A stretch of 64,000 nucleotides of DNA from an uncultured Desulfarculaceae bacterium. Lineage in GTDB: Bacteria; Desulfobacterota; Desulfocorpusculales; Desulfocorpusculum. Below are positions 3,113-37,683 of the stretch, piece after piece. Position numbers and translations under genes: made by a program. The stretch lies in the NCBI GenBank assembly GCA_964414345.1, contig CAYPWF010000005.1:6974-70973 (forward strand). The letters run 5' to 3'. Each line of letters opens with the position of its first letter. Position 1 is the first letter of the stretch. The notes beneath the pieces were generated by a model. That model did no database searches, was not told where the DNA came from, and saw only the letters and a program-made list of their open reading frames with translations.

Positions 3113-4213
3113 TCAAAAATCAGGCTCCAGCACTATCCTGCGGGTAATGTTACCAGAGTGAGCTTCCTCGAAAGCCTCCTTTATCTGGCTCATGGGCCTT
3201 GTCTGGAGGAAAGGCTCTATCTGGATCTTTCCTTTCTGAACCATCTCCAGCACCACCGGATAATACTTGGGCAGGCATCCCCATGTGCCTATTATCTCGG
3301 CGTCAAAGGCCATGAGTCTTGAGATGCTGTACTCGTTTTTGGCCATTCCGAAGCCTACCACCACCAGTTTCCCCACAAAGGACAGAAGGGTCAGGGCTAT
3401 GTCCTGGCCTGCCTTGGTGCCCGTTACCTCGAAGATCTTCCATCCCCAGTTGTGAGGGAGCTTGTTGGCTTTGCATGTTTCACGGAACTCGTTCTGAATC
3501 GTCTTTACGTCTTTGTCCTTGGAGTTGATTATGGCATCAGCCCCAAACTTCAAAGACCTCTCCAACTTCTCCTGGTTGCGCGCTATGGCCACCACATAGC
3601 GGGCACCCAAGGCCTTGACCATTTGAGTCATGTAAACCCCCACCCCGCCGGTTGCTCCTATCACAACAGCCAAATCTCCTTCTTTGAAACCGGCCCTCAT
3701 GGCCGCCTGGTAGGGGGTGGTTACAGCGTCGGCCACAACCGCGTAGTGGGAGAGGGGAATCCCTTTGGTATCCTCTATCACGCACAGATCCTGAGACGGC
3801 ACCGGGATATGACTGGAAAAACCCCCGTAAGGCCCCAGGCTGTTGCCTGGCATTTTCTGGGCCAGACACCTGTTACCCCGGCCGGCCGCGCAAATGGGGC
3901 AGTTATTGCAAGGCATGACGGCTGGGACTATCACCTTCTTTCCCAGAAGATCTCCAGCCACAACAGTGCCGCTGATCTCGTGGCCTAGGGTCAGGGGAGG
4001 CTTCTCCACTGTGGGCACCCCATCATAGAAATAACCCAAATCCGTGTGACAGACCCCGCATCCCGCCACCTCCACCAGGGACTCCCCCGGCTTCAGCTCG
4101 GGCACGTCCAGTTCAGCCCTTTCCAGTACCCCTTGCGTCACTTCGCCGGTCTCCCTGTTCTTGCTCCAGGGAGTCTTCATCTGCCATGTCTGGATCTTCT
4201 GGGGCGCTGCCAT
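3113..4213 (-). CDS. Zn-dependent medium-chain dehydrogenase. Candidate 6-hydroxycyclohex-1-ene-1-carbonyl-CoA dehydrogenase (Had/BamQ-like), judged from context.
   Basis: GVCHTDLGYFYDG with GHEISG zinc/catalytic motifs and a GATGGVG NAD-binding loop. It lies immediately downstream of bamI and is preceded by the same AGACCA leader motif as bamI. Confidence 0.55.
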   Translation of the reverse strand: MAAPQKIQTWQMKTPWSKNRETGEVTQGVLERAELDVPELKPGESLVEVAGCGVCHTDLGYFYDGVPTVEKPPLTLGHEISGTVVAGDLLGKKVIVPAVMPCNNCPICAAGRGNRCLAQKMPGNSLGPYGGFSSHIPVPSQDLCVIEDTKGIPLSHYAVVADAVTTPYQAAMRAGFKEGDLAVVIGATGGVGVYMTQMVKALGARYVVAIARNQEKLERSLKFGADAIINSKDKDVKTIQNEFRETCKANKLPHNWGWKIFEVTGTKAGQDIALTLLSFVGKLVVVGFGMAKNEYSISRLMAFDAEIIGTWGCLPKYYPVVLEMVQKGKIQIEPFLQTRPMSQIKEAFEEAHSGNITRRIVLEPDF

Positions 4214-4232
4214 GGGAACCTCCTTTCTCCTT

Positions 4233-4284
4233 CCTCTGGTCGGTCTCGCCTATCTGGTCTGTTCTGTCTGTCTGGTCTATTTCG
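4233..4284 (-). promoter_or_regulatory. AGACCA-repeat leader element immediately 5' of the RBS of the had candidate
   Basis: The mRNA strand reads CGAAATAGACCAGACAGACAGAACAGACCAGATAGGCGAGACCGACCAGAGG-AAGGAGAAAGGAGG-N5-ATG. It shares CGAAATAGAC, AACAGACCAGATAG and ACCAGAGG with the element at 5252-5285. Confidence 0.5.
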
Positions 4285-4350
4285 TGGGTTAGCAGCCTTG
4301 GGTTGGCTGAGTCAGGGAGACAGGGGGTCAAAGGCCCCCATCTTTGCGAC

Positions 4351-4575
4351 TCACCCCTCCCTTGCCGGCCTGGTATAGATGACCTTGAACCGCTCAAGGT
4401 TCGCTTCAAGACATGAGCGGCACTCCCCTTCCTCTGCAGGGGGGAGGGGCTCCAAACGCACCTCCAAACCTAGGGAGCGGTAGAGCTCCACAGCCTCGCT
4501 CAGCCTGGGCTCTGCTGCTACAAACTGCTTGGTCCAACCATCTTCCATGCTGATTTTCCCTATCGGAGCTGCCAA
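4351..4575 (-). CDS. Hypothetical small protein (74 aa) between bamI and the had candidate
   Basis: Intact ORF in the operon orientation that fills the bamI-had gap; no recognisable motif; coding status uncertain. Confidence 0.25.
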   Translation of the reverse strand: MAAPIGKISMEDGWTKQFVAAEPRLSEAVELYRSLGLEVRLEPLPPAEEGECRSCLEANLERFKVIYTRPAREG

Positions 4576-4627
4576 GTCCTACCCGGCCTGTTGCTCAAGG
4601 CTAAAAGCCTACAACTTCCCCCCATAT

Positions 4628-5242
4628 CTATTTCACCCTTTCCCCTCCCCCTCCGAGAGAGGGAGATGCCATGGCCTCGATCAAGACAAAGGCCGCCTGC
4701 AAGGCCGAAGTGGGGCAAAGCGGGAAACACTCCCTGCACTCCCAGCAGACCTTGGAAGCTATCTCAGGTATGAAACTGATCTCCCGCCTGGTCCCCCGGT
4801 CTATGAACCCCACGGCGTTCAACTTCTTTATCTCCGCACAGTACCTAACACAAAGCCCGCAAAGGATACAGAAAGAAGCCTCTTTTTCGAACCGATCGGG
4901 GTCGGCTCCATATTCCCGACCCAACTCCACCAGAACCGGTGAATGAGGTGCGTGGGCCAAAAGCAGCTCCAGGATACTTTTTCGAATCATGTCGATTTTG
5001 GGCGACCTTGTCTTAACCACCAAATCCTCTTCCACCTGATATAGACATGCCGCCACCAACCTTGACCTGCCTCGACTCTCCACCTCCACCGTGCAGATCC
5101 TACAGGCCCCGTAAGGCTCCAGTTTTTCATGATGGCAAAGGGTGGGGATACTTATCCCTTGCTTCTCAGATGCCTGAAGAATGGTCATCCCTTCTTTTGC
5201 CGCAACCTCCTTGCCGTCTATCTCCAGCCTTATGTCACTCAT
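4628..5242 (-). CDS. bamI: BamI-like: NuoG N-terminal-type 2Fe-2S plus 4Fe-4S ferredoxin subunit
   Basis: Start chosen at MSDIRLEIDGKEV, which has an RBS, rather than the ORF-track start. 2Fe-2S motif CHHEKLEPYGACRICTVEV plus cysteine clusters CILCGLCVRYC and CWECRECFPLCP. Last gene of the NuoE/F/G-like module. Confidence 0.75.
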   Translation of the reverse strand: MSDIRLEIDGKEVAAKEGMTILQASEKQGISIPTLCHHEKLEPYGACRICTVEVESRGRSRLVAACLYQVEEDLVVKTRSPKIDMIRKSILELLLAHAPHSPVLVELGREYGADPDRFEKEASFCILCGLCVRYCAEIKKLNAVGFIDRGTRREISFIPEIASKVCWECRECFPLCPTSALQAAFVLIEAMASPSLGGGGERVK

Positions 5243-5251
5243 CTCGGGGTT

Positions 5252-5285
5252 CCTCTGGTCTATCTGGTCTGTTCCGTCTATTTCG
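5252..5285 (-). promoter_or_regulatory. AGACCA-repeat leader element immediately 5' of the bamI RBS
   Basis: The mRNA strand reads CGAAATAGACGGAACAGACCAGATAGACCAGAGG-AACCCCGAG-ATG. It is a shorter version of the element at 4233-4284. Confidence 0.5.
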
Positions 5286-5345
5286 ACTGTTTGGCCCATG
5301 GGGCGCAACGGCCCTTGGAATCGTCTTCTTTCCGTGTCCGCGCCT

Positions 5346-7262
5346 TTATCCCTTAACCTCGGGTGCGGCCCCCTGCTGCACTCCGACGGGCACGGGCTGC
5401 CCGGAGATCTTCTTCACAGCATTGAAGCGGGACGGACACACCTCGAAACAGGTCCCACACTTGGTACATTTTTCCTGGTCGATGACGTGCACCACTTTTT
5501 TCCCACCGGTTACAGCCCCGGCTGGACATTTCCTAAGGCAATTCATGCAGGCCTTGCATTTCTCAGGGTCTATATAGTAGGAGATCAAATTCTTGCAGGA
5601 AAGGGCCGGGCATCTTTTCTCGCGCACATGGGCCTCGTACTCTTCCCTGAAGTATTGCAAAGTGCTGAGGAAAGGATTGGGGGCGGTCCTGCCCAGGGCG
5701 CAAAGGGAGGCCTCCTTGGCAACTACAGCCAATTCCTCCAGGAGCTGTATATCCCCTTCTTTGCCCTCCCCTCGGGTTATGCGGGTGAGCAGTTTCAACA
5801 TCTGTCTGACCCCCTCCCGACAGGGCACGCATTTCCCGCAGGACTCGTCTGTGAGGAATTCCAGGAAATACCTGGCCACATCAACCATGCAGGTATCCTC
5901 GTCCATGACGATCATCCCGCCTGAGCCCATCATGGATCCGGCCTGGGAAAGCTCGTCGAAACCCACTTGCATATCCAGCAGGCTCTCAGGAAGGCAGCCC
6001 CCTGAAGGGCCTCCGGTCTGCACTGCCTTGAAGGCCTTCCCGCCTGGGATACCGCCGCCGATGTTGTAAATGATCTGCCTCAGGGTGGTTCCCATGGGCA
6101 CTTCCACAAGGCCTGTGTTGGTTATCTTCCCCACCAGGGAAAAGATCTTAGTTCCTTTGCTGGTGTCCGTTCCAAATTCACAGAACCAATCAGCCCCTTT
6201 GTTTATGATGAGGGGCACATTGGCCCAGGTCTCCACATTGTTAAGGACGCTGGGCCGGTCCCATACCCCTTTTATGGCCGTATGAATATACTTGGGCCTG
6301 GGCTCCCCAACCTTCCCCTCCAGGGCGGTCATGAGGGCGCTGGATTCCCCGGACACAAAAGCCCCTGCCCCTCTGTGCACCTTTACCTCAAAATCAAAAC
6401 CCGAGCCCAATATGTTCTTGCCCAAAAGGCCTTTTTCCATAGCCGTTTCTATGGCATGGCCGACATTTTCCACAGCAAGAGGATACTCCTGCCTCACATA
6501 GATAAATCCCTGGTGGGCCCCCACTGCGTAGCCCCCTATGACCAGACCCTCCAGAACCGAGTGCGGATTCCCCTCGAGCAGGCTCCTGTCCATGTAGGCC
6601 CCGGGGTCTCCCTCGTCGGCATTCACAATCACATATTTGGTATCGCCTGGAGCCTTTCTGGATTCCTCCCATTTTCGGCCTGTAGGGAATCCCCCGCCCC
6701 CTCTTCCCCTTAAATTGGATCTCTTGACCTCTTCCACCACCTGTTCGGGGCTCATCTGAAAAAGCACCTTGGCAAGAGCAGAGTATCCCCCCAGGGCCAA
6801 ATAATCCTCCAGGCTCTTGGGATCAATGCTGCCGTTTGAGCCAAGCACAACTCGCTGTTGGTTCTTGTAAAAGGGGATATCTGATTCATGCACTATCTTC
6901 TGTCCGGTTCCGGGCTCCTCGTACAGAAGCCTCTCCAGGAGCTTGTTTTGCTTTACGGTCTCCGAGACTATTTCAGGCACATCTTCGGGCTGCACCTTCA
7001 GGTAGCATATGCCTTCAGGATGGATGACTATGATGGGACCTCTTTCGCAGAAGCCGTGACAGCCCGTCCTCCTAAGCTCAACATCCCCTTCCAGGCCTTG
7101 TTTCTTGAGCTCCTCCTGGATGGCCACAGCCACTTCCCTGCTTCTGGCAGCATGACAAGCCGATCCAGAACACAAGGAAATACAGCGTCTGTGAGGGTCT
7201 CTTCTGGAAAGAATCTCCTTCCTTAGCTCTTCCAGTTCAGCGGGTGAATTTATCCTGGGCAT
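5346..7262 (-). CDS. bamH: BamH-like: NuoF/HydB-type NAD(P)H-binding flavoprotein with N-terminal thioredoxin-like 2Fe-2S and C-terminal 2x[4Fe-4S] domains
   Basis: GGGFPTGRKWE (NuoF FMN/NADH motif), SCGKCVPCREG, and C-terminal CKACMNCLRKCP...CTKCGTCFEVCP; 638 aa (~69 kDa). Confidence 0.85.
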   Translation of the reverse strand: MPRINSPAELEELRKEILSRRDPHRRCISLCSGSACHAARSREVAVAIQEELKKQGLEGDVELRRTGCHGFCERGPIIVIHPEGICYLKVQPEDVPEIVSETVKQNKLLERLLYEEPGTGQKIVHESDIPFYKNQQRVVLGSNGSIDPKSLEDYLALGGYSALAKVLFQMSPEQVVEEVKRSNLRGRGGGGFPTGRKWEESRKAPGDTKYVIVNADEGDPGAYMDRSLLEGNPHSVLEGLVIGGYAVGAHQGFIYVRQEYPLAVENVGHAIETAMEKGLLGKNILGSGFDFEVKVHRGAGAFVSGESSALMTALEGKVGEPRPKYIHTAIKGVWDRPSVLNNVETWANVPLIINKGADWFCEFGTDTSKGTKIFSLVGKITNTGLVEVPMGTTLRQIIYNIGGGIPGGKAFKAVQTGGPSGGCLPESLLDMQVGFDELSQAGSMMGSGGMIVMDEDTCMVDVARYFLEFLTDESCGKCVPCREGVRQMLKLLTRITRGEGKEGDIQLLEELAVVAKEASLCALGRTAPNPFLSTLQYFREEYEAHVREKRCPALSCKNLISYYIDPEKCKACMNCLRKCPAGAVTGGKKVVHVIDQEKCTKCGTCFEVCPSRFNAVKKISGQPVPVGVQQGAAPEVKG

Positions 7263-7271
7263 TGTCCCGTC

Positions 7272-7739
7272 CTACTCGTATTGATTGAGCACTTCTGATG
7301 TTTTGGAGGGCGCCATGGCCCCGTAAGTTTTCCCGTCTATTTCCATGACCGGCCCCAGAGCGCAGCATCCCAGACAATTCACTGTTTCCAGGCTGAACTT
7401 AAGATTTGCATCGGTCTCTCCGGCCCTTATCCCGGTCAAACCCTCCACGGACTCCAGGACCCTCTGGGCCCCCCGCACATGACAAGCGGTACCCATGCAG
7501 ATATGGATCTCGTGACGGCCTTTGGGCACCAAACTGAAGGCCTTGTAAAAAGTGGCTATGTGCTGAATGCGGCTAAGGGGCACATCCAGCCTTTGGCTGA
7601 CCCTCTCCAAGGCCTCTTTGGGGAGCCAGTGGATTTCCCTTTGAATCTCCAGCAGCACCTGGATAAGAGAGCTGGCATCTCCGTCATACTTGTCTAGGAT
7701 TTCATCCAGTTTGCCCCTGTCCATGGCCTCCTCGTCCAT
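7272..7739 (-). CDS. bamG: BamG-like: NuoE/HoxE-type 2Fe-2S thioredoxin-like subunit
   Basis: CMGTACHVRGAQ...CLGCCALGPV, the canonical NuoE cysteine pattern; 155 aa. Confidence 0.85.
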   Translation of the reverse strand: MDEEAMDRGKLDEILDKYDGDASSLIQVLLEIQREIHWLPKEALERVSQRLDVPLSRIQHIATFYKAFSLVPKGRHEIHICMGTACHVRGAQRVLESVEGLTGIRAGETDANLKFSLETVNCLGCCALGPVMEIDGKTYGAMAPSKTSEVLNQYE

Positions 7740-7841
7740 ACGGTTTCTCTTTTAGTGATTTTTTTATCATCCAATCCGCATTGAATTTATGCCTGTCAGA
7801 CGGACCAAGCAATTTACCTCCCCGGTCCCCCAGGACTGCCT

Positions 7842-8606
7842 TCAAGCCAAGGCAAAGCTCTTGGCCTCTCCGTCATACCTTATAAGACCTTTTCTGGAAA
7901 GGCCTATGAGCTGCTTGGATACTTGAGAGCCGCTAAGCCCCAGTCGCTCGGCTATCTGCCCTGTGGAAAGAGGGGTTCTTGCAAGCAGAAGAGCTATCTC
8001 CTGTTTTTCCAATTCCTCCAGGATGGTCTGGCGAATCAGAGCCTTGCCCTCCTGGCTCCCGAAAAACCTCACATATTCTTGCTCAGACCTTGAAAGCTTG
8101 AGCCTTTCCGCCATGGCAAGCCTTATGTAGGGAACCAGCCTTGCAGCAGCCTCCAGGCCGATTCCAACTCTAGCCTGGTCGGCCCCCTCTCCTGTACCCA
8201 GGGGCCCGAGCTTGGTCAGCTTCTTGGCAAAGTCATTCATTACCTCGGCGAACCTAATCCCTTCGGAAGCGCTCACCCACTCCAATCTGAGCCTCTCAGG
8301 ACTCAGGCCTATGTGTTCCAGGATTGCTTTCCCCACATATACCATGCCCAAGGCGTCATAATTCCCCTCTGTAATGTAATGGCACTCTCCGGGCCAACAT
8401 CCGCCTATGAAGACCCCGTCCGCCCCACCTGTGAAGGCCTTCAGTACGAAAGAGATATCTACCCTGCCGGAGCACATTAAACGCACCAGCCTCACGTAAG
8501 GAGGGTACTGATAACGGGAAACCCCTGCCAAATCCGCCCCTGCGTAACAACACCAGTTGCAGGAAAACCCTATTATCCTGGGCTTGAATTGAAAACCAGC
8601 GCTCAT
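7842..8606 (-). CDS. bamF: BamF-like: MvhD (methyl-viologen-reducing hydrogenase delta)-type domain with a C-terminal winged-helix-like extension
   Basis: Start at MSAGFQFKP with a GGAGG RBS, 4 nt after the bamE stop. MvhD motifs FSCNWCCYAGADLAG, RLMCSGRVD and FIGGCWPGECHY. The C-terminal ~110 aa contains TGQIAERLGLSGSQVSKQLIGLSRKGLIRYDGE, which is wHTH-like. Confidence 0.8.
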   Translation of the reverse strand: MSAGFQFKPRIIGFSCNWCCYAGADLAGVSRYQYPPYVRLVRLMCSGRVDISFVLKAFTGGADGVFIGGCWPGECHYITEGNYDALGMVYVGKAILEHIGLSPERLRLEWVSASEGIRFAEVMNDFAKKLTKLGPLGTGEGADQARVGIGLEAAARLVPYIRLAMAERLKLSRSEQEYVRFFGSQEGKALIRQTILEELEKQEIALLLARTPLSTGQIAERLGLSGSQVSKQLIGLSRKGLIRYDGEAKSFALA

Positions 8607-8610
8607 GATC

Positions 8611-13240: not shown

Positions 13241-13789
13241 TCATTCTTTCTTGGAAACTTTCTCACCCGAAACTCTAGCTATGGTCTCTATGACCTTCTC
13301 CATACCATATTTTTCCAAGAGGGCTTCAACACCCATCTCCAGATCCTCGGGCTTGGCATCTTCTTGCCCTTCCTCTTCCCTCTCCTCGTAGGTCAAGGCA
13401 TCCACCAAACACCACTTCACGCACATGGGCTCTTTGAGCTCCGGGTCGTCCTCGCACATGTCGCACTTGAGGGGCAGTCCTGAGTCGGGCTCCTTGAAAA
13501 GATCCCTGGAAGAGCAGGAGGCGTTACAGAAGTTGCATTCCCCGTAGTCCCTTCCGTCTATCACATAAGAATGTCTTCCGGCGCACTCGGCCTCGGCATG
13601 ATACCCGGCCCTGATAGGCAGAAAAACATTGTCCAGTTCGTCCCTAATCACCCTTATCCTGGATCTGGAAGGGTTGTTGCTGGCGTACTTTGGCGAGGAA
13701 TGAAAGGCTGAGCAGGCAACCTCGCAAGCCCTGCAGCCGTTACACTTGTCCACATCAACCTTTATGGATTTTATCTTCTTTTTTTGCAC
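13241..13789 (-). CDS. bamC: BamC-like: small poly-ferredoxin (4Fe-4S) electron-transfer subunit
   Basis: CNGCRACEVAC, CNFCNASC and CDMCEDDP...CVKWC cluster-binding motifs; 182 aa (~20 kDa); directly downstream of the AOR-family gene. Confidence 0.75.
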   Translation of the reverse strand: MQKKKIKSIKVDVDKCNGCRACEVACSAFHSSPKYASNNPSRSRIRVIRDELDNVFLPIRAGYHAEAECAGRHSYVIDGRDYGECNFCNASCSSRDLFKEPDSGLPLKCDMCEDDPELKEPMCVKWCLVDALTYEEREEEGQEDAKPEDLEMGVEALLEKYGMEKVIETIARVSGEKVSKKE

Positions 13790-13925
13790 CGTCGACTCCT
13801 TTCCCGCGGCCCGAGTCTTCCTACAAGGCCCAAAACTAATCTAAGAGTCTTCCCAGACTTCAGAACCAAGACCCCCTCACGCTGCTTCCAAACTCCTTAG
13901 ACCCAGCTTCCAAGTCTCACCCCGC

Positions 13926-15890: not shown

Positions 15891-16031
15891 TTCGTCCCCC
15901 CACTGTCGAGCTTAGCGCTTTTGCTTCTTGGAACCTAGGAGCCCCCCGAAAGCAGCTGTTTCAAGCTGTCTTGCGAACCCCTAGGCAGGGCCTCGAACCG
16001 GAAAGGCCTGAGACCTCATCACTAAATTCAT

Positions 16032-16052
16032 ACTAGTCTCTTTGCGACTAGT
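16032..16052. promoter_or_regulatory. Operator-like site ACTAGTCTCTTTGCGACTAGT (two ACTAGT palindromes, 15-bp centre spacing) upstream of bamB, with an adjacent ACCAGATAG motif at 16058-16068
   Basis: Near-identical to the site upstream of padR at 21506-21528. Located in the 220-bp gap between the activase-gene stop (16110) and the bamB start (15890). Confidence 0.55.
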
Positions 16053-16109
16053 ATCAATCTATCTGGTCCCTGAAAGCTTGTCAACACTTTTTTTGATTCC
16101 GGAGATGGT

Positions 16110-17006
16110 TCAGGAAGAAAGCTGGACCCCATGGGTCTTTTCAAACCTTGGGTTTTTTTCTAAGAGGGACTTGGCAAACACAGCAGCTCCAATGGCCCCG
16201 GCCAGCTGCGTGTCGTATCTGGGTTGAAGGCTCTTGAGTCCCAACTCCCTCTCCACCCGCGCCACAACCCCTGAGTTCTTGGCTATGCCCCCTGTGATGG
16301 CGAACTCCCTCTCTACCCCGATCCGTTCCAGCAGCAGAACCACCCTGCGAGCCATGGCCAAGCAGTAAGCTGCAGCGACCTTTTCCCTGGACCAACCAGA
16401 TCTAAGGAGCCTTGAGGCCTCGCTCTTGGCGAACACCACACAAGTGCTGCTCACAGCAGGAGGCTCCTGTTCCACCTTCAGGGAAAGCTCTCCCATCTCC
16501 TCAAGGGGAAGGCCCATTAATTCAGCCAGGACCTCGATCCCCCGGCCAGTGCCGGCGGCACACTTGTCGTTCATGATAAAAGACAGGACCTTTCCTTCCT
16601 GGTCACAACGGATTGCTTTACAGTCCTGCCCTCCCATGTCCAGAATCGTGCGCACCGAAGAGCCGTAAATGAAATTAGCTCCTTTGGCGTGACAGGCTAT
16701 TTCGGTTACCGTGCGATTCGCAAAGGGTATGTTGACCCTTCCGTATCCGGTCCCAACGATGTAATGAATCTCTCCTAGGGTTAGGCCTGTGTTCTCCAAG
16801 GCCCACTCCATGGCCCTTGTGGCGCTCTTGGCGCTTTGGGAGCCTGTATGGATGTTGGAGTAACAGTAGAGTTGCCCGTCAAGCATTACTACGGCTTGGG
16901 TGCTCACAGAGCCTACATCCACTCCGGCGGTTATTAGCTTGGCTTTTCTCCAGTCCAGATCAGGGGAGTTCCATCTGACCTCAGCCCATGTTGAAAACCC
17001 TGACAT
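16110..17006 (-). CDS. BadF/BadG/BcrA/BcrD-family ATPase (HgdC-type CoA-substrate-specific enzyme activase), copy 2
   Basis: ITAGVDVGSVSTQAVVML ASKHA-fold phosphate-1 motif; NDKCAAGTG cluster-bridging motif; 298 aa. Confidence 0.75.
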   Translation of the reverse strand: MSGFSTWAEVRWNSPDLDWRKAKLITAGVDVGSVSTQAVVMLDGQLYCYSNIHTGSQSAKSATRAMEWALENTGLTLGEIHYIVGTGYGRVNIPFANRTVTEIACHAKGANFIYGSSVRTILDMGGQDCKAIRCDQEGKVLSFIMNDKCAAGTGRGIEVLAELMGLPLEEMGELSLKVEQEPPAVSSTCVVFAKSEASRLLRSGWSREKVAAAYCLAMARRVVLLLERIGVEREFAITGGIAKNSGVVARVERELGLKSLQPRYDTQLAGAIGAAVFAKSLLEKNPRFEKTHGVQLSS

Positions 17007-17094
17007 GCCTCGCTCCTGCCTTATGCCTTGCAGCCTGTCTGAGAACCGGCCTTTCTCCCAAGCCGTAATTGGTCACCTGTGGGGATGGCTTACC

Positions 17095-17865
17095 TCAAAC
17101 CTTCTCAGCCCCGAGGAGCGCTGCCCCCAAGGCACCTACCAGCTCGGGCTGCTCGGGAACCTTCACCTCAACTCCCAAAAGCCTGCTTAGGGCCTGCACC
17201 ACCCCAATATTTCTTCCCACACCCCCCACCAGCAGCACCTCGGGTTCCACCCCGACCCGCCTCACCATGGAGGCTATCCGCTCGGCAATGGCGTCATGCA
17301 CGGCCCGAGCCATGTCGGGTTTGGGGGTGTTGGCGTGCACCAGAGAAATAACCTCGCTTTCTGCGAAAACAGTACACTGGGCATTGATGCAAACCTGCTT
17401 TGTGGCCTCCAAGGCCAAAGGGCCCATCTCTTCCAGCTTCACCTCCAGGGCCCTGGCCATGGTTTCCAAAAAAACTCCGGCTCCAGCAGCACATCTGTCG
17501 TTTATGACAAAATCAACCAGCCTCCCACGGCTGTCGGTCCTAAGAGCCCTGGCCTCCTCTGCCCCCACATCTATGACCGTTCTGGCATTGGGGGAAAAAT
17601 ACACGGCTCCTCTGGCATCCGCGCTCACCTCGGTTACGGTGTCGTGGTGAAAGCCCACCTGTTGCTTGCCGCATCCAGTGGCCACAACCCTTTGCACCTT
17701 TTCCTTTGGGACTCCGGCTACATCCAGGGCTTCCCCATAAGCCTTTTCCACTGCAGCAGCTGTATCCCCTCCGGCCACAACCAGACTCCAGCCAAGTATC
17801 CCAGACTCTCCCAGAATCACAACCTTCACAGTTTTGGCTCCGCAGTCCACCCCTGCTGTTATCAT
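17095..17865 (-). CDS. BadF/BadG/BcrA/BcrD-family ATPase (HgdC-type activase), copy 1
   Basis: Start at MITAGVDCGAKTVKVVILGESG; NDRCAAGAG motif; 257 aa. Confidence 0.75.
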   Translation of the reverse strand: MITAGVDCGAKTVKVVILGESGILGWSLVVAGGDTAAAVEKAYGEALDVAGVPKEKVQRVVATGCGKQQVGFHHDTVTEVSADARGAVYFSPNARTVIDVGAEEARALRTDSRGRLVDFVINDRCAAGAGVFLETMARALEVKLEEMGPLALEATKQVCINAQCTVFAESEVISLVHANTPKPDMARAVHDAIAERIASMVRRVGVEPEVLLVGGVGRNIGVVQALSRLLGVEVKVPEQPELVGALGAALLGAEKV

Positions 17866-18130
17866 CCCAGCGCTCCTGAATCCAAGCCTAACCCCCCCAA
17901 GCCCCATCCGCAAAGAAAGAGAAAAACCCGGTCATCCCAAAAAGAAATTATCACCGGCCCAGGTTCCTGCACAAGCTAAGAGGTCACATTTTTTCACCTA
18001 CAGATAATCAGGCTCCATTCTCCTGGGGAGGCACGGCCCCCATTTCAGGGGGCTTGAGCGACCTGTATCTTTTTTTCCGAAAAGAAAACCTGTCAAGGGA
18101 ATCGGCCGGGCCTAAGAACACAGGTACCCA

Positions 18131-18622
18131 CTAGTCCAGATCCACCTGAGTCTTGCACTTGTTGCACCTCATGGCCCCACGGAAAAGCTTCTGGCCGCAT
18201 TGGGGGCAAAGGTACCTGGCTTCCTCATCCTGGACCCACTTCTCGGTTCCTACTTCCCGCCAATAAGGAATGGCCCTCAAGATCACCCTCTTGCCCACGC
18301 TCATGGGGAAATTCTCTATGTGCGTGCAGGGGAACTCATCACATTGGTGGCAGCCCTGGTAACCTTTCTTCTGGGTGCAGGACCTGATCTCACACTTTTT
18401 GCAGTATATGAACTGATCCTGGGAAAGGCACCCCTGGCATCTGATCTCATCTGGGGTTAGCCTCTCGCTGTTGGGGAGGGTGCCCTTTCCAGGGGAGTTA
18501 CCCTTGTAAAGCTCAACCAGTTTCTCTTTGAGCTTCTGGTTATTGTCCCTATGTGCAATGTAGATGGCACAGACCCCACAGTAGAGCCCGCACGGAGCCA
18601 GAAAATTCGGGTTCACTTCCAT
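18131..18622 (-). CDS. DUF3795-like cysteine-rich protein (putative metal/Fe-S-binding)
   Basis: Start at MEVNPNFLAPCGLYCGVCAIY. CxxC pairs: CGLYCGVC, CQGC, CKKCEIRSC, CHQCDEFPC, CPQC and CNKC. Confidence 0.55.
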   Translation of the reverse strand: MEVNPNFLAPCGLYCGVCAIYIAHRDNNQKLKEKLVELYKGNSPGKGTLPNSERLTPDEIRCQGCLSQDQFIYCKKCEIRSCTQKKGYQGCHQCDEFPCTHIENFPMSVGKRVILRAIPYWREVGTEKWVQDEEARYLCPQCGQKLFRGAMRCNKCKTQVDLD

Positions 18623-18743
18623 GGCATGCCCCCCTTGCTGTTCCTTTTTCTGGAACTGACTGGGTCCTTTTGGCACTGGGCTGCGAGCCGAAGGCCTGAG
18701 GCCCGAGGGCTGAATCAGATGCTCCCCATTGCCTCGGCCTATC

Positions 18744-19514
18744 TCAGCTCTCTTTCCAGACAGGCTCCCGCTTATCCAAAAAAGCCTGGAGCCCTTCGCG
18801 GGCATCCTGGGTACTCATGAGCTCCTTGAGATAGATCTCCTCGATACGGCCGAGTCCCTTTTCCCCCTGGGTGTCCCAGCCCTCTACCATTGCCTTTCGG
18901 GCCAGTCTGAGCACGACCCCGCTTAGCTTCCCGAAGCGGGAAACCCAAGCCTGGGCCTCTGCCTGGAGTTGATCCTGTGGGACTACCTTGTTCACAAGCC
19001 CTATCTGAAGGGCCTCCTGGGCTGTGACCGTCTCCCCTGATAAAACAAGCTCCATGGCCTTTTTCCTGCCGATGATCCTGGGGAAGGCCAGCGCAGCTAT
19101 GGGGGGGAAGACACCGACTTGGATCTCTGGCTGGCCGAAACGCGCCTTGTCGCTGGCCAGCACCATGTCGCAATAAGTGGCCAGCTCGCATCCTCCACCC
19201 AGGGCCGCCCCTTGCACCACGGCCAGGCTGGGCACCCCCAGGGAGTCCAGACGGCGAAAGATCCCGTGGAAGACACGAATCATGTGCTCGGCCTTGTCCC
19301 CCAGATGGTCCGCCACTTCCACACCCACAGAGAAGGCCTTCCCCTCGGCTTGGAAAACCAGCAGATTGGGGGGAGAACTCACGAGGCTATCCAAGGCTCG
19401 GATTATCTCCTCCATCATCTGGATGTTCATCCAGTTAAGAGGGGGCCTCTTCAAGGTAATCCAGGCCGCCTTTTCCTTAAGCTCCACTCCGATGAACTCG
19501 AACCCCTCCTTCAC
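18744..19514 (-). CDS. Enoyl-CoA hydratase/isomerase (crotonase) family. Candidate cyclohexa-1,5-diene-1-carbonyl-CoA hydratase (Dch/BamR-like).
   Basis: 256 aa crotonase fold with an AALGGGCELA oxyanion-hole motif; located between the oah candidate and bamB. Confidence 0.6.
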   Translation of the reverse strand: MKEGFEFIGVELKEKAAWITLKRPPLNWMNIQMMEEIIRALDSLVSSPPNLLVFQAEGKAFSVGVEVADHLGDKAEHMIRVFHGIFRRLDSLGVPSLAVVQGAALGGGCELATYCDMVLASDKARFGQPEIQVGVFPPIAALAFPRIIGRKKAMELVLSGETVTAQEALQIGLVNKVVPQDQLQAEAQAWVSRFGKLSGVVLRLARKAMVEGWDTQGEKGLGRIEEIYLKELMSTQDAREGLQAFLDKREPVWKES

Positions 19515-19597
19515 CCTTGCACCTCCTGTCCCTGAAGAGAAACCAGCACCGGAAAACCAAGGCGGGACCCAAGAGGCCCCGCCCGATTTGAATTCTC

Positions 19598-20728
19598 CTA
19601 GGCCTGCGGCTTGCCCAGAACCGCCTCTTTTAGTTCCTCGTCAAAGGGATGGGCTTGGGCCAGAAGCTGCCTGTACTTGATGAAGTCTATCAGGTCCTTG
19701 CCTGTGATCTTCTTGGTGTTGAAGGCGTGAAAGCCTAGGAAAGCCTCTGTCATCATGTTCACAGAGAGCCAGTGGCGGTTGGCCAGCTTGGTCATGTCCC
19801 AGAAGAACTTTTTCTTCATGCGGATACCGTCTATGGACTTGATAAGACAGCCTGGGAAAAGATTGGTGAAGGTCCATAGAATCTCTCCCACACACTGGTC
19901 CAGGAGGGCTAGATCCTTCTTGGCCTCCTTGACGTAAGCCCTGGCCTTGGCCAGCTCCTCCCCTTTCTTGAACTCCCCGTAGACGATCTCCCCATCCTCC
20001 ACGTACTTGTCTGTTATGACCTGGGGGTTGCGTACCCACTTGTCCCCGTCCTTGATGACCGGAACCACCTTTGAGATGAGCCCCAGTCGCTTCATCTTAT
20101 AAGCACTCCACATCTCGCAGGAGACGCAGTTCCACATGGCATCCTCCATGCTGAGGAACCATGGGAGGAAATCCGTGGAGCCCCCATCCGGCGCAGAGCC
20201 GTGGCGGGGACCGGCCTGCCCGAAAATTGCTAGGTCAGAGGCCACAGTCAGATCACAGGCCATTCCTATCTCCTGTCCGCCTGCCACCCGCATGCCGTTT
20301 ACCCTGCAAATGACGGGTTTCTTGCAATTCAAAATGGCATCCACCATGCCGTTGAACAAATCCATGTACAGGCCGTATTCCTGGGGATTGCCCCCGTAGT
20401 ACTCTGCATACTCCTTGGTGTTGCCCCCGGTGCAGAAGGCATCTGTTCCCACAGCAGTAAAAACAACGGCCACCACGCTTCTGTCCATGGAAGCCTTGTG
20501 AAACCCGGAGATGACCCCCTTTACCATCTCAGTGGTGTAGGAGTTGTATTGCCTCGGGTTGTTCAATATGACCCAGGCCGAATAAAGCCCCTCCACGGGC
20601 CGGCCTTTGGGGTCCAAAATGGGCCTTTTCTCGTAAATGGTGCAGGGGGCTTCTTTCCCAAAATGCTCATCCCCCCAAAGGTCGTGGTCTTTCATGCCTT
20701 TCTCTTTGGGCAGCCAATCCAGGGACAT
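19598..20728 (-). CDS. bamA: Crotonase-family ring-cleaving hydrolase. Candidate 6-oxocyclohex-1-ene-1-carbonyl-CoA hydrolase (Oah/BamA-like).
   Basis: 376 aa, unusually long for a crotonase (the Oah size class), with FCTGGNTKEY and MRVAGGQEIGMACD motifs; sits next to dch and the bam operon. Confidence 0.65.
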   Translation of the reverse strand: MSLDWLPKEKGMKDHDLWGDEHFGKEAPCTIYEKRPILDPKGRPVEGLYSAWVILNNPRQYNSYTTEMVKGVISGFHKASMDRSVVAVVFTAVGTDAFCTGGNTKEYAEYYGGNPQEYGLYMDLFNGMVDAILNCKKPVICRVNGMRVAGGQEIGMACDLTVASDLAIFGQAGPRHGSAPDGGSTDFLPWFLSMEDAMWNCVSCEMWSAYKMKRLGLISKVVPVIKDGDKWVRNPQVITDKYVEDGEIVYGEFKKGEELAKARAYVKEAKKDLALLDQCVGEILWTFTNLFPGCLIKSIDGIRMKKKFFWDMTKLANRHWLSVNMMTEAFLGFHAFNTKKITGKDLIDFIKYRQLLAQAHPFDEELKEAVLGKPQA

Positions 20729-37678: not shown

Positions 37679-37683
37679 CTCCT

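What the first reader, a model, noticed from the sequence alone, without database searches (positions are those of the whole stretch)
3113..20728. Complete ATP-independent class II benzoyl-CoA reductase locus (bamB-I) with its downstream ring-processing genes (dch-like, had-like, oah-like) in one co-oriented block
Eight consecutive minus-strand genes reproduce the order and product sizes of the Geobacter metallireducens bamBCDEFGHI cluster. These are an AOR-family enzyme (654 aa), a ferredoxin (182 aa), an HdrD-like protein (386 aa), a double-FAD HdrA-like protein (1044 aa), an MvhD-like protein (255 aa), and NuoE-like (155 aa), NuoF-like (638 aa) and NuoG-N-terminal-like (205 aa) modules. Immediately upstream lie a 376-aa crotonase (Oah size class) and a 256-aa crotonase (Dch size class); immediately downstream lies a Zn-ADH-family dehydrogenase (Had-like). 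This marks the host as an obligate-anaerobe-type aromatic degrader using a presumed electron-bifurcating W/Mo enzyme. The system is known, but intact syntenic copies are uncommon and good for comparative work.
Basis: partly seen in the sequence, partly recalled or inferred. Interest (0 to 1): 0.55.

Follow-up and report, generated by a model that had tools for sequence, protein, structure and literature searches.

The report
Tungsten benzoyl-CoA reductase operon, selenium-free variant
This is a genuine, complete gene cluster for the ATP-independent tungsten enzyme that strict anaerobes use to break the benzene ring; the system is well known and common, but this copy lacks selenocysteine and carries two unexplained ATPase genes from the rival ATP-dependent enzyme class.

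Summary
The eight minus-strand genes are a real Geobacter-type class II benzoyl-CoA reductase operon, bamBCDEFGHI (4628-15890). BamB is 67% identical to the crystallised G. metallireducens BamB. It keeps the BamB-specific tungsten ligand Cys322 and the Glu251/His255/Glu257/His260 proton relay. BamC to BamI match the cofactor-binding features described for the cryo-EM complex. Oah (19598-20728) and Had (3113-4213) pass NCBI equivalog cut-offs. The 256-aa crotonase does not pass the Dch cut-off.

They are a DUF3795 protein and an intact BzdP/BzdQ-type ATPase pair, the electron-activating half of a class I reductase. No bzdN or bzdO occurs anywhere in the 64-kb window. This orphan pair is monophyletic, is under purifying selection, and keeps its position in ten independent loci. 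Three of those loci have no bam genes in the cluster, so its partner is unknown.

BamF has Cys19 where 50 of 57 species-level relatives have selenocysteine. A 21-bp operator shared by the bamB and padR promoters is conserved in this clade only.

bam clusters themselves are common: at least 522 relatives among species-representative genomes. Only the all-in-one layout is rare.

Verdict: a known system, with a new variant worth a modest follow-up.

The parts
21507..21527 (-). Operator-like site ACTAGTTTCAAAGAGACTAGT upstream of padR, just downstream of a TTGACA hexamer
   Evidence: 2 matches in the window against 0 in 100 shuffles. Conserved at the same place in L087, L166, L120 and L168.
20839..21444 (-). 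PadR-family transcription regulator (201 aa), the probable regulator of the block
   Evidence: PF03551, E=1.8e-14. It is the first gene of the conserved string in all ten loci of the clade.
19598..20728 (-). [quoted passage not shown]
   Evidence: TIGR03200 equivalog, 581.6 bits against a cut-off of 464.45.
19560..19584 (-). Terminator-like hairpin (11 pairs, 8 of them G-C) directly after oah
   Evidence: It is a consensus match only; the total number of such sites in the region is not above chance.
18744..19514 (-). Crotonase-family enoyl-CoA hydratase (256 aa); candidate dienoyl-CoA hydratase by context only
   Evidence: PF00378, E=9e-52. TIGR03189 (Dch) scores 158.2 bits, below the 292.5 cut-off. 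Orthologues are 77-88% identical at the same position in the clade, and 47-57% identical copies lie near bzd-type operons.
18131..18622 (-). DUF3795 protein (163 aa, rich in CxxC motifs), function unknown
   Evidence: PF12675, E=9e-20. It holds the same position in 9 of 10 clade loci. The family is very widespread and conserved, and elsewhere it sits in varied neighbourhoods.
17095..17865 (-). BzdP-type (delta) ATPase subunit of a class I benzoyl-CoA reductase electron-activating module, orphan (256 aa)
   Evidence: PF01869, E=1.6e-50; TIGR00241, 231 bits. Both cluster-ligand Cys motifs (NDRCAAG, AQCTVFA) and the BzdP-typical DVGAEE motif are conserved. dN/dS is 0.058 against L087.
16110..17006 (-). 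BzdQ-type (alpha) ATPase subunit, orphan (298 aa)
   Evidence: TIGR03192 equivalog, 387 bits against a cut-off of 380.2. The best solved relative is MbdQ, 9gai_D. The motifs DMGGQD, NDKCAAG and STCVVFA are conserved. dN/dS is 0.079. No bzdN or bzdO occurs in the window.
16030..16084 (-). bamB promoter-like site (TTGACA-17-TAGATT, 10 of 12 matches) followed by the operator ACTAGTCGCAAAGAGACTAGT (16032-16052)
   Evidence: The operator is conserved upstream of bamB in L087, L088, L166 and L167.
13926..15890 (-). BamB, catalytic tungsten-bis-metallopterin subunit (654 aa)
   Evidence: Collinear over 653 residues with 4z3w_A and 67% identical, 1041 bits. Cys322, Glu251, His255, Glu257 and His260 are conserved.
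13241..13789 (-). BamC, 3x[4Fe-4S] ferredoxin subunit (182 aa)
   Evidence: Matches 4z3w_E at E=2e-68. All 12 Cys align with Cys in the Geobacter chain.
11969..13129 (-). BamD, HdrD/HdrBC-like subunit (386 aa), high-potential output
   Evidence: Two CCG domains plus a 2x[4Fe-4S] domain. His229, Trp324 and Tyr355 correspond to G. metallireducens His230, Trp325 and Tyr356. One CCG motif lacks its last Cys (CYHT).
8611..11745 (-). BamE, fused double-HdrA flavoprotein (1044 aa), bifurcating FAD
   Evidence: Three permuted matches to HdrA structures. Two FAD/TrxR-like modules, an inserted ferredoxin domain and a C-terminal ferredoxin domain. The CxxC at Cys70/Cys73 and Lys290 are conserved.
7842..8606 (-). 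BamF, extended MvhD-like adaptor with a winged helix (254 aa); Cys19-Cys20 in place of Sec19
   Evidence: FlpD, E=1.8e-48, plus C-terminal HTH hits. Position 19 is a TGA codon in 50 of 57 species-level loci and Cys here.
7272..7739 (-). BamG, NuoE/HydC-like [2Fe-2S] subunit (155 aa)
   Evidence: PF01257, E=1.6e-49.
5346..7262 (-). BamH, NuoF/HydB-like FMN/NADH confurcating subunit (638 aa)
   Evidence: Contains an N-terminal Trx-like [2Fe-2S] domain, the 51K FMN domain, SLBB, NADH_4Fe-4S and a C-terminal 2x[4Fe-4S] domain. Asp219 lies in DEGD219PG, as described.
4628..5242 (-). BamI, NuoG-N-terminal-like subunit (204 aa), one [2Fe-2S] and two [4Fe-4S] clusters
   Evidence: Fer2_4 plus Fer4_7 domains.
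4351..4575 (-). Conserved small ORF (74 aa, CxxC), function unknown, always just upstream of had
   Evidence: 68-69% identical in L167 and L168. A small ORF of 78-85 aa is called at the same position in L167, L168, L173 and L174.
3113..4213 (-). [quoted passage not shown]
   Evidence: TIGR03201 equivalog, 464.5 bits against a cut-off of 338.65.

Best explanation
The block from 3113 to 21527 is a benzoyl-CoA catabolic regulon of a strictly anaerobic bacterium. The source is JGI metagenome contig Ga0587145_00009. The nearest BamB relatives, at 80% identity, are Syntrophaceae/Deltaproteobacteria MAGs.

Its core is a complete Geobacter-type class II benzoyl-CoA reductase. By homology with the G. 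metallireducens enzyme, the proposed electron path is as follows. BamGH takes electrons from NADH and reduced ferredoxin at an FMN (confurcation). BamI and the extended MvhD-like BamF pass them to the fused double-HdrA BamE. There one FAD bifurcates them. The high-potential electron leaves through BamD, to an ETF that is not encoded in this window. The low-potential electron runs through BamC to the tungsten-metallopterin of BamB. BamB reduces benzoyl-CoA to cyclohexa-1,5-diene-1-carbonyl-CoA.

A hydratase then acts, probably the divergent crotonase at 18744-19514. Had and Oah follow and open the ring to 3-hydroxypimelyl-CoA.

A PadR-type repressor probably controls both its own promoter and the bamB promoter through a shared 21-bp operator.

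The copy has two variant features. BamF uses Cys-Cys instead of selenocysteine. An intact BzdP/BzdQ-type ATPase pair plus a DUF3795 protein sit between the crotonase and bamB.

Shown here: gene content, homology, conserved residues, synteny and purifying selection. Inferred: the electron path, the substrate, the regulation and any role for the ATPase pair.
For: - BamB: 1041 bits and 67% identity to 4z3w_A, against 219 bits for the next AOR-family structure. Cys322 and the Glu251/His255/Glu257/His260 site are all present, and the literature defines these as BamB features.
- BamC: E=2e-68 to 4z3w_E, with 12 conserved Cys.
- BamD to BamI: the domain architectures match the cryo-EM description. 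BamH Asp219, BamE CxxC and Lys, and BamD His/Trp/Tyr are in place. BamE matches HdrA in three permuted segments, as expected for a fused dimer.
- Gene order: bamB-C-D-E-F is the same in all 80 species-level loci, as far as each contig reaches.
- Ring-processing genes: Oah and Had exceed their equivalog cut-offs.
- Operator: 2 exact sites in 64 kb against 0 in shuffles. It is conserved at the same two promoters only in this clade.
- Recurrence: the same block recurs in independent samples.
Against: - No biochemical or expression data exist for this organism.
- The crotonase fails the Dch equivalog cut-off, so the hydratase step is assigned by position only.
- ETF, benzoate-CoA ligase and the downstream beta-oxidation genes are not in the window.
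Residue matches for these subunits therefore rest on published numbering, with offsets of -1 (BamD) and +10/11 (BamE).
- BamB paralogues that act on other aryl-CoA esters cannot be excluded by sequence.
- The presence of class-I-type ATPase genes shows that the block is not a pure copy of the Geobacter arrangement.
Confidence: 0.85

Rival explanations
1. The BzdP'/BzdQ' pair is the electron-activating half of a split class I (Bzd-type, ATP-dependent) benzoyl-CoA reductase. Its catalytic BzdN/BzdO subunits are encoded elsewhere in the genome. The organism would then own both reductase classes, and the pair would have nothing to do with BamB.
For: - The pair is orthologous to BzdP/BzdQ of 47 genuine bzdN-bzdO-bzdP-bzdQ operons at 50-71% identity, with all ATPase and cluster motifs conserved.
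- BzdQ' passes the TIGR03192 equivalog cut-off.
- There is no long stem branch in the P+Q tree, so no sign of a change in constraint.
- BzdPQ and BzdNO are thought to form only a transient complex.
- Many anaerobe MAGs carry both bzdQ and bamB.
- Locus L101 has a bzd operon directly in front of bamBCDE.
- Three clade loci have the pair but no bam genes.
Against: - No bzdN or bzdO lies within 10 kb in any of ten clade loci, or anywhere in the 64-kb window.
- In every other lineage sampled with enough flanking sequence, N and O sit directly upstream of P and Q, or the operon is visibly decaying.
- A stable separation maintained across a whole clade would be unprecedented in this sample.
Confidence: 0.35
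2. The BzdP'/BzdQ' pair, possibly with DUF3795, has been recruited as an ATP-driven low-potential electron injector or reductive re-activator for the tungsten enzyme BamBC. That would make a hybrid of class I and class II chemistry.
For: - The pair lies directly upstream of bamB in seven loci of the clade, including diverged ones where BamB is only 71-73% identical.
- An independent lineage (L131) also has P-Q directly in front of two BamB-type genes, without bzdN/O.
- The genes are under purifying selection.
- Related ATPases act as catalytic activators of 2-hydroxyacyl-CoA dehydratases (PDB relatives).
- After turnover the W cofactor must be re-reduced at very low potential.
Against: - Three clade loci keep padR-oah-ech-DUF3795-P'-Q'-had with no bam genes between. 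The pair is therefore tied to the lower-pathway genes, not to bamB.
- bamB has its own promoter-like site and operator.
- All known partners of this ATPase family belong to the HgdAB/BcrBC/double-cubane superfamily, to which BamB and BamC do not belong.
- The G. metallireducens enzyme needs no such factor.
Confidence: 0.1
3. BamB here is a paralogue that reduces a different aromatic CoA ester, such as a substituted benzoyl-CoA, rather than benzoyl-CoA itself.
For: - Many anaerobes carry several BamB paralogues. L131 has two AOR/BamB-type genes in tandem.
- Identity to the characterised enzyme is 67%, not higher.
Against: - All residues named as contacting or protonating the ring are conserved.
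- The cluster sits between Oah and Had equivalogs, which are specific for the unsubstituted benzoyl-CoA pathway.
Confidence: 0.08
4. The Hdr/Mvh/Nuo-like genes belong to an unrelated Hdr-Flox or Mvh-Hdr type complex that merely lies next to an aldehyde oxidoreductase.
For: NCBIfam's best names for these proteins are HdrA2, VhuD, NuoE and NuoF. All score below the cut-offs.
Against: - The fixed order bamB-C-D-E-F is present in 80 of 80 loci.
- The fused double-HdrA of 1044 aa, the MvhD homologue extended by about 100 residues with a winged helix, and the BamD His/Trp/Tyr plug of the heterodisulfide site are BamE/F/D hallmarks.
- BamB is not an aldehyde oxidoreductase.
Confidence: 0.02

Closest known systems
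Class II benzoyl-CoA reductase Bam[(BC)2DEFGHI]2 of Geobacter metallireducens (Gmet_2080-2087; PDB 4Z3W-4Z40 for BamBC; cryo-EM preprint 10.64898/2026.04.10.717634)
   Same: It has the same eight genes in the same order. BamB is 67% identical, with the W-ligand Cys322 and the Zn/proton-relay residues. BamC has 12 Cys. BamD has a plugged heterodisulfide site and one disrupted CCG motif. BamE is a fused double HdrA with the CxxC and the Lys next to the bifurcating FAD. BamF is long and has a winged helix. BamH has Asp219 and all its domains. BamI carries one [2Fe-2S] and two [4Fe-4S] clusters.
   Different: BamF has Cys19-Cys20 instead of Sec19. In Geobacter, oah (Gmet_2088) is next to bamB, but dch and had (Gmet_2150/2151) and the ETF genes lie in a second cluster. 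Here oah, a divergent crotonase and had flank the operon, and no ETF gene is nearby. Two class-I-type ATPase genes and a DUF3795 gene lie directly upstream of bamB. The regulator is PadR-type, with its own operator.
Class I Bzd-type benzoyl-CoA reductase BzdNOPQ (Aromatoleum/Azoarcus) and 3-methylbenzoyl-CoA reductase MbdONQP (PDB 9GAI)
   Same: The 298-aa and 256-aa proteins are BzdQ/BzdP orthologues: ASKHA-fold ATPases, each with two Cys for a bridging [4Fe-4S] cluster. They lie in the order P then Q, as in bzd operons. In sister loci (L167, L168, L174) a small ferredoxin follows. By my recollection, not checked here, this resembles bzdM following bzdQ in the Azoarcus operon.
   Different: The catalytic BzdN/BzdO genes and the 831-aa NuoG/GltD-like flavoprotein that follows bzdQ in 46 environmental operons are absent. 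The pair forms its own clade, embedded in a padR-oah-ech-DUF3795-...-had cluster.
Activators of 2-hydroxyacyl-CoA dehydratases (HgdC, HadI; PDB 1HUX, 4EHT)
   Same: Same family and fold. The 256-aa protein's best solved match is HadI (203 bits). These proteins inject a single electron at the cost of ATP.
   Different: The activators are homodimers encoded next to HgdAB/HadBC dehydratase genes. No such genes are here. The two proteins here are a diverged alpha/delta pair, as in benzoyl-CoA reductases.
Dch/Had/Oah of Thauera aromatica and BamR/BamQ/BamA of G. metallireducens
   Same: Had and Oah are equivalog-level members, and the pathway logic is the same.
   Different: The crotonase is not an equivalog-level Dch. 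Thauera and Geobacter Dch are 73% identical to each other (PMC1924859), whereas this protein scores no better against the Dch model than against generic enoyl-CoA hydratase models.

Membership tests
Class II BCR, catalytic subunit BamB | AOR/WOR-family protein whose closest characterised relative is BamB rather than an aldehyde or formaldehyde oxidoreductase | tested here: met
   4z3w_A scores 1041 bits over residues 1-653 and is 67% identical. The next hit, 1aor, scores 219 bits.
Class II BCR, catalytic subunit BamB | Cys322 as the protein ligand of tungsten (present only in BamB and YdhV) | tested here: met
   C322 is invariant in the pairwise alignment. The feature is defined in PMC12096430.
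Class II BCR, catalytic subunit BamB | Zn-site and proton-relay residues Glu251, His255, Glu257 and His260 | tested here: met
   All four are invariant at the same numbering.
Class II BCR, catalytic subunit BamB | Tungsten content and benzoyl-CoA/dienoyl-CoA oxidoreductase activity | not testable with these tools
   Requires protein purification, metal analysis and an enzyme assay.
Class II BCR, BamC | Small subunit with three [4Fe-4S] clusters (12 Cys), homologous to 4z3w_E | tested here: met
   E=2e-68. All 12 Cys align with Cys in the Geobacter chain.
Class II BCR, BamD | HdrD/HdrBC-like: 2x[4Fe-4S] plus two CCG domains; heterodisulfide site filled by His230, Trp325 and Tyr356; distal non-cubane cluster motif disrupted | tested here: met
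   Two CCG domains, E=5e-37. His229, Trp324 and Tyr355 sit at a constant offset of -1. The first CCG motif ends CYHT instead of CxxC. No Geobacter sequence was available for a direct alignment.
Class II BCR, BamE | Fused, domain-permuted HdrA dimer with two FAD sites, an inserted ferredoxin domain and a C-terminal ferredoxin domain; Lys next to the bifurcating FAD; redox-active CxxC | tested here: met
   1044 aa. Three permuted HdrA matches. Two FAD modules and two Fer4 regions. DC70SMC73 and K290 in CCTYTQK. The residue equivalent to Gln768 at the second FAD was not determined.
Class II BCR, BamF | MvhD homologue extended by about 100 residues, with a winged helix-turn-helix | tested here: met
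   254 aa. The FlpD domain spans residues 11-134 (254-aa numbering) and several HTH models hit residues about 203-249 (254-aa numbering). Solved MvhD chains are 129-141 aa.
Class II BCR, BamF | Selenocysteine at position 19 (the 'W/Se-containing' enzyme) | tested here: not met
   The sequence reads NWC19C20Y with a Cys codon. 50 of 57 species-level loci have TGA at this position. This is a Cys variant rather than a disqualifier: 7 other species-level loci share it.
Class II BCR, BamGHI | HydBC/NuoEF-like confurcating module: BamG [2Fe-2S]; BamH with a Trx-like [2Fe-2S] domain, an FMN/NADH core with Asp219, [4Fe-4S] and a C-terminal 2x[4Fe-4S] domain; BamI with one [2Fe-2S] and two [4Fe-4S] clusters | tested here: met
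   Pfam architecture. D219 lies in DEGD219PG.
Class II BCR operon | Gene order bamB-C-D-E-F-G-H-I on one strand | tested here: met
   The same order is found in 17 of 49 species-level loci long enough to show it. The B-C-D-E-F order holds in all loci, as far as each contig reaches.
Oah / BamA (TIGR03200) | Score above the equivalog cut-off | tested here: met
   581.6 bits against 464.45.
Had / BamQ (TIGR03201) | Score above the equivalog cut-off | tested here: met
   464.5 bits against 338.65.
Dch / BamR (TIGR03189) | Score above the equivalog cut-off | tested here: not met
   158.2 bits against 292.5. A generic enoyl-CoA hydratase model scores higher, at 167 bits. Crotonases next to oah/had/bam/bzd genes in five other MAG loci also stay below the cut-off. 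Function as a dienoyl-CoA hydratase therefore remains possible but untested.
Class I Bzd-type BCR (BzdNOPQ) | BzdQ (alpha) equivalog | tested here: met
   TIGR03192 scores 387.0 bits against 380.2, only just above the cut-off.
Class I Bzd-type BCR (BzdNOPQ) | Second ATPase subunit (BzdP, delta) with its own two cluster-ligand Cys | tested here: met
   49-62% identical to the P subunits of genuine bzdNOPQ operons. The motifs DVGAEE, NDRCAAG and AQCTVFA are shared with them. No BzdP-specific NCBIfam model matched. TIGR02261 (BcrD) scores 135.7 bits, below its 312.85 cut-off.
Class I Bzd-type BCR (BzdNOPQ) | Catalytic subunits BzdN and BzdO encoded with P and Q | tested here: not met
   tblastn with BzdN/BzdO representatives that meet TIGR03190/03191 finds nothing in the 64-kb window or in clade loci L087, L088, L120 and L166-L168. 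In L172-L174 no HGD-D-type gene is among the called genes. No remnants were found in the intergenic spacers. The rest of the genome could not be searched.

The most novel reading that the evidence does not exclude
In this clade a BzdP/BzdQ-type ATPase pair has been uncoupled from the class I catalytic subunits. It now serves a non-canonical partner as an ATP-driven low-potential electron injector or reductive re-activator. The most interesting candidate partner is the tungsten enzyme BamBC. This would blur the textbook split between ATP-dependent (class I) and ATP-independent (class II) aromatic ring reduction.
Probability: 0.12. Interest if true: 0.85.

Novelty: new variant of a known kind. 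Interest (0 to 1): 0.45.

Why it matters
Class II benzoyl-CoA reductase carries out one of the most reducing reactions known in biology. Its full architecture was described only in a 2026 preprint, and for a single organism.

This locus is a complete GHI-type operon that needs no selenocysteine insertion. That makes it a practical candidate for heterologous production and for testing what Sec19 of BamF contributes.

The conserved, selected, orphan BzdP/BzdQ pair sits in the same regulon-like block. It raises a concrete, testable question: do some strict anaerobes combine ATP-driven electron activation with the bifurcating tungsten enzyme, or do they simply split a class I enzyme across the genome?

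The PadR operator gives a handle on the regulation of anaerobic aromatic degradation in uncultured Syntrophales-like bacteria.

The survey also corrects the impression that bam operons are rare. It shows that most of them lack the BamGHI input module.

Tried and rejected
1. Looked for the G. metallireducens holo-complex in the PDB copy, to align BamD to BamI directly. Only BamBC (4Z3W-4Z40) is deposited. Residue checks for D, E, F and H therefore use the published numbering.
2. Looked for bzdN/bzdO, or decayed remnants of them, in the window and its intergenic spacers. None were found; only noise-level hits appeared. 'Dead relic of a class I operon' was rejected for the ATPase genes. Their ORFs are intact, all motifs are conserved, and dN/dS is 0.06-0.08, like bamD and bamF. 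Decaying operons do exist elsewhere, in L114, L126 and L130.
3. Considered DUF3795 as a dedicated Bam or ATPase partner. Close orthologues occur inside three other bam clusters and never in bzdNOPQ loci. However, the family has more than 2300 close homologues, and its neighbourhoods are unrelated in Desulfosarcina variabilis and two other genomes. The association is therefore weak, and structure prediction was not pursued.
4. Tested whether crotonases next to oah/had in other bam loci are canonical Dch. None reach the cut-off, so this did not resolve the Dch question.
5. The Rfam scan of the window found nothing. Composition shows no island signature around the block.
6. The promoter and terminator scan gives counts no higher than shuffled sequence. 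Only the positions of the best promoter site and the shared operator are used.
7. The rest of the window contains housekeeping genes only: obg, proB/proA, nadD, glyS, glycolysis genes, an Opp transporter and Mla/MMPL. There is no ETF, benzoate-CoA ligase or glutaryl-CoA dehydrogenase.
8. dS values are saturated (above 1) for all comparisons, so the dN/dS figures are only rough.

Full report
**Observation**

The ORF list for 1-26 kb shows an uninterrupted run of minus-strand genes from 21444 down to 3113. The exceptions are off-by-one counts for BamF (254 aa from the ATG at 8606) and BamI (204 aa from the ATG at 5242, as gene callers place it). Pfam confirms every domain assignment:
- AFOR_N and AFOR_C for the 654-aa protein.
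- A poly-ferredoxin.
- A 2x[4Fe-4S] domain plus two CCG domains.
- A 1044-aa protein with two FAD modules and two ferredoxin regions.
- FlpD (MvhD) plus a C-terminal helix-turn-helix.
- NuoE-like, NuoF-like and NuoG-N-terminal-like proteins.
- A Zn-dependent alcohol dehydrogenase.

One search confirms the two crotonases. Two are BcrAD_BadFG ATPases (16110-17006 and 17095-17865). The third is a DUF3795 protein (18131-18622). A conserved 74-aa ORF (4351-4575) also separates bamI from had. 'Immediately upstream' and 'immediately downstream' are not accurate.

**Is it a class II benzoyl-CoA reductase?**

BamB is collinear with the crystallised G. metallireducens BamB over 653 residues. It scores 1041 bits and is 67% identical. 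The next best solved relative, Pyrococcus aldehyde ferredoxin oxidoreductase, reaches 219 bits.

A review of tungsten enzymes states that Cys322 ligates tungsten only in BamB and YdhV. It also states that Glu251, His255, Glu257 and His260 form the Zn site that becomes the proton conduit to the ring. All five residues are conserved at identical numbering. BamC matches the crystallised BamC at E=2e-68, with all twelve cluster cysteines.

The PDB copy holds no Geobacter structure for BamD to BamI. I therefore used the feature list of the 2026 cryo-EM preprint:
- BamH has the Trx-like [2Fe-2S] domain, the FMN/NADH core, the [4Fe-4S] helix bundle and the C-terminal 2x[4Fe-4S] domain. Asp219 sits at exactly that number.
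- BamE is a fused, domain-permuted HdrA dimer. HdrA structures match it in three rearranged segments. It has the DCSMC redox-active pair and the Lys of CCTYTQK next to the bifurcating FAD.
- BamF is about 115 residues longer than solved MvhD chains and ends in a winged helix.
- BamD has His229, Trp324 and Tyr355 at a constant offset of -1 from the residues that plug the heterodisulfide site in Geobacter. One CCG motif lacks its last cysteine, as the preprint reports for most BamD homologues.

I scanned one genome per species with conserved BamB peptides. The best 80 were fetched with 10-kb flanks. In all of them bamB is followed by bamC, D, E and F in the same order, as far as the contig reaches.

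**The flanking pathway genes**

Oah scores 581.6 bits against TIGR03200 (cut-off 464.45). Had scores 464.5 bits against TIGR03201 (cut-off 338.65). Both are equivalog-level members.

The 256-aa crotonase scores only 158.2 bits against the Dch model TIGR03189 (cut-off 292.5), slightly below a generic enoyl-CoA hydratase model. Canonical Dch proteins are highly conserved: Thauera and Geobacter Dch are 73% identical (PMC1924859). This protein is therefore a divergent crotonase.

Its orthologues keep the same position in the clade at 77-88% identity. Relatives at 47-57% identity lie near bzd-type operons. Crotonases next to oah/had in five other loci also miss the cut-off. A role as dienoyl-CoA hydratase is plausible from context but not shown.

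The rest of the window holds housekeeping genes only. There is no ETF, benzoate-CoA ligase or glutaryl-CoA dehydrogenase.

**How common is this?**

bam operons are not rare, with at least 522 species-level hits. Of the 49 loci long enough to judge, 17 have bamG, bamH and bamI. The other 32 lack bamG and bamI. In one sequenced example (L167), BamF instead carries a fused 2x[4Fe-4S] domain. Only 4 of 80 loci have oah and had within 10 kb. The Geobacter-type GHI operon is thus a minority form, and the all-in-one layout is uncommon.

The closest BamB in any species representative is 80% identical (Syntrophaceae/Deltaproteobacteria MAGs). The window itself is part of JGI metagenome 3300059600, contig Ga0587145_00009, 668,733 bp.

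**Selenium-free BamF**

The preprint places a selenocysteine, Sec19, next to the [2Fe-2S] cluster of BamF. I translated the BamF N-termini of all fetched loci. Position 19 is an in-frame TGA in 50 of 57 species-level loci ([HN]W-U-[AG]-Y). The window and its relatives L087, L088, L120, L166 and L167 read NWCCY with a Cys codon, as do seven other species-level loci. This operon therefore encodes a Cys-Cys variant of the site.

**The class-I-type ATPase pair**

The 298-aa protein passes the BzdQ equivalog model, though narrowly: TIGR03192 scores 387 bits against a cut-off of 380.2. Its best solved relative is MbdQ of 3-methylbenzoyl-CoA reductase. The 256-aa protein is closest to HadI and MbdQ.

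A metagenome scan with the 298-aa protein returned 80 loci. In all of them the two genes are adjacent, in the order P then Q. Clustering the neighbours gave the following:
- 47 loci have a 437-aa protein directly upstream.
- 36 loci have a 375-aa protein directly upstream.
- 46 loci have an 831-aa NuoG/GltD-like flavoprotein downstream.

The two upstream proteins are BzdO (TIGR03191, 631 bits) and BzdN (TIGR03190, 502 bits). The window's pair is therefore orthologous to BzdP/BzdQ, the electron-activating module of class I reductases. Both proteins keep the nucleotide-binding motifs and the two cysteines each for the bridging [4Fe-4S] cluster. The DVGAEE motif of the smaller protein is the norm for BzdP.

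Yet BzdN/BzdO are absent from the 64-kb window and from relatives L087, L088, L120 and L166-L168 by tblastn. L172-L174 show no such gene among those called. The spacers hold no remnants.

In a neighbour-joining tree of concatenated P+Q, these orphan pairs form one clade, separate from all bzdNO-linked pairs. dN/dS against L087 is 0.058 for P' and 0.079 for Q', like bamD (0.062) and bamF (0.055). dS is saturated, so these are rough values. They do rule out pseudogenes. By contrast, L114, L126 and L130 show decayed bzdO and flavoprotein fragments with stop codons next to intact P-Q.

**The conserved core of the clade**

Ten independent loci share the string padR-oah-crotonase-DUF3795-P'-Q'-[small ferredoxin]-[bam cassette]-small ORF-had. 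L120 lacks DUF3795. They fall into three layouts:
- bamBCDEFGHI present: the window, L087, L166, L172 and L120.
- A ferredoxin plus bamBCDEF with a ferredoxin-fused BamF: L088 and L167.
- No bam genes at all between Q' and had: L168, L173 and L174.

L168 is 88-94% identical to the window in padR, oah and had, but only 62-73% identical in P' and Q'. The cluster is therefore mosaic, and the bam genes behave as a cassette.

This weakens the attractive idea that the ATPase pair serves BamB, because the pair is tied first of all to the lower-pathway genes. Two other loci point to where the arrangement may have come from. L101 has bzd(N)OPQ and the flavoprotein directly in front of bamBCDE. L131 has P-Q directly in front of two BamB-type genes without bzdNO.

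The literature notes that BzdPQ and BzdNO probably form only a transient complex. It also notes that many anaerobe MAGs carry both bzdQ and bamB. I found no paper describing an orphan BzdPQ pair in a bam cluster. The library searched is limited to open-access papers and preprints.

My ranking for the pair:
- A split class I enzyme with N/O elsewhere: about 0.35.
- A recruited activator or injector for BamBC: about 0.1.
- Some other or unknown partner: the remainder.

**DUF3795**

Close orthologues (71-75% identical) occur inside three other bam clusters at different positions (L001, L004, L028) and in none of the bzdNOPQ loci. This looked like a specific link. However, the family has more than 2300 homologues. 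The best 120 are at least 69% identical, and most are exactly 163 aa. In Desulfosarcina variabilis and two other genomes the neighbours are unrelated. I therefore treat its role as unknown.

**Regulation**

The 219-bp spacer before bamB contains the best promoter-like match of the region, TTGACA-17-TAGATT. It is followed by ACTAGTCGCAAAGAGACTAGT. The padR upstream region has a TTGACA and then ACTAGTTTCAAAGAGACTAGT. The 21-bp pattern occurs twice in 64 kb and never in 100 shuffles.

ACTAGT-N9-ACTAGT is found in the same two positions in L087 and L166, before bamB in L088 and L167, and before padR in L120 and L168. Among the 165 loci held when the scan was run, it occurs in no locus outside this clade. 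A PadR-type repressor that controls itself and the bam cassette is the simplest reading. This is inference.

A terminator-like hairpin follows oah.

**Mechanism**

By homology with the Geobacter enzyme:
- NADH and reduced ferredoxin are confurcated at the BamH FMN.
- Electrons pass through BamI and BamF to BamE.
- The first FAD of BamE bifurcates them to BamD (high potential, to ETF, which is not encoded here) and through BamC to the W-metallopterin of BamB.
- BamB transfers a hydrogen atom from its aqua ligand to C4 of benzoyl-CoA, then an electron together with a proton from His260.
- Hydration, dehydrogenation by Had and hydrolytic ring opening by Oah follow.

All of this is inferred from conserved parts. 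None of it is measured for this organism.

**Verdict**

This is a genuine, complete, known system. The copy is a new variant in three respects: Sec-free BamF, a clade-specific PadR operator, and a conserved orphan class-I ATPase pair with DUF3795. Interest is moderate. It would be high only if the ATPase pair proves to work with a non-canonical partner.

Noticed in passing
window 16032-16052 and 21507-21527: A shared 21-bp site, ACTAGT-NN-CAAAGAG-ACTAGT, lies in front of bamB and in front of padR. In each case it is just downstream of a TTGACA hexamer. It is conserved at the same places in L087, L088, L120 and L166-L168 and in no locus outside this clade. It is probably a PadR operator.
   Followed up: yes
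window 4351-4575 (-): A conserved 74-aa ORF with a CxxC motif lies between bamI and had. It is 68-69% identical in L167 and L168 and always sits just upstream of had. No known family matches it.
   Followed up: partly
L001-L080 (species-level BamB loci): 32 of 49 sufficiently long bam loci lack bamG and bamI. In L167, BamF is a fusion of FlpD with a 2x[4Fe-4S] domain. The NADH/ferredoxin confurcating input module described for Geobacter is therefore the minority solution.
   Followed up: partly
L101 1-11948; L131 6366-13603: In L101, a class I bzd(N)OPQ operon and its 831-aa flavoprotein are followed directly by bamBCDE. In L131, a P-Q pair without bzdN/O is followed by a second AOR/BamB-type gene (8655-10610) and then bamB.
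   Followed up: partly
L114 6809-6919; L126 4021-4148 and 6236-6493; L130 681-844: Decayed fragments of bzdO and of the 831-aa flavoprotein, with in-frame stops, lie next to intact bzdP-bzdQ genes. Class I operons appear to be eroding in some lineages.
   Followed up: no
L156 9169-15443: A bzdP-bzdQ pair without bzdN/O lies directly upstream of xanthine-dehydrogenase-family genes (FAD_binding_5, MoCoBD). These resemble 4-hydroxybenzoyl-CoA reductase genes.
   Followed up: no
window 18131-18622 (-); L169-L171: The DUF3795 protein belongs to a strikingly conserved family. It has more than 2300 homologues, and the best 120 are at least 69% identical and nearly all 163 aa. Members occur in Desulfobacterota, in Bathyarchaeia and elsewhere, in varied neighbourhoods. 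JGI labels some as 'predicted RNA-binding Zn-ribbon protein'.
   Followed up: partly
window 53650-57918 (-), with 52356-53645 and 57973-58977: A 1422-aa protein matches only PPDK_N and PEP-utilizer domains in its C-terminal third. It is flanked by two glyceraldehyde-3-phosphate dehydrogenase paralogues. The first roughly 950 residues have no Pfam match.
   Followed up: no
window 37061-38119 and 37684-40398 (-): The two longest ORFs overlap by about 435 bp: an MlaC-domain protein and an MMPL-family transporter. Start codons probably need revising. An outer-membrane efflux protein gene is next to them.
   Followed up: no
window 8611-11745 (-), residue 781: In the second, non-bifurcating FAD module of BamE, the motif-equivalent position (CCSHSVK781) is Lys. 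The Geobacter enzyme is reported to have Gln768 at that FAD. Without the Geobacter sequence, the equivalence could not be verified.
   Followed up: no
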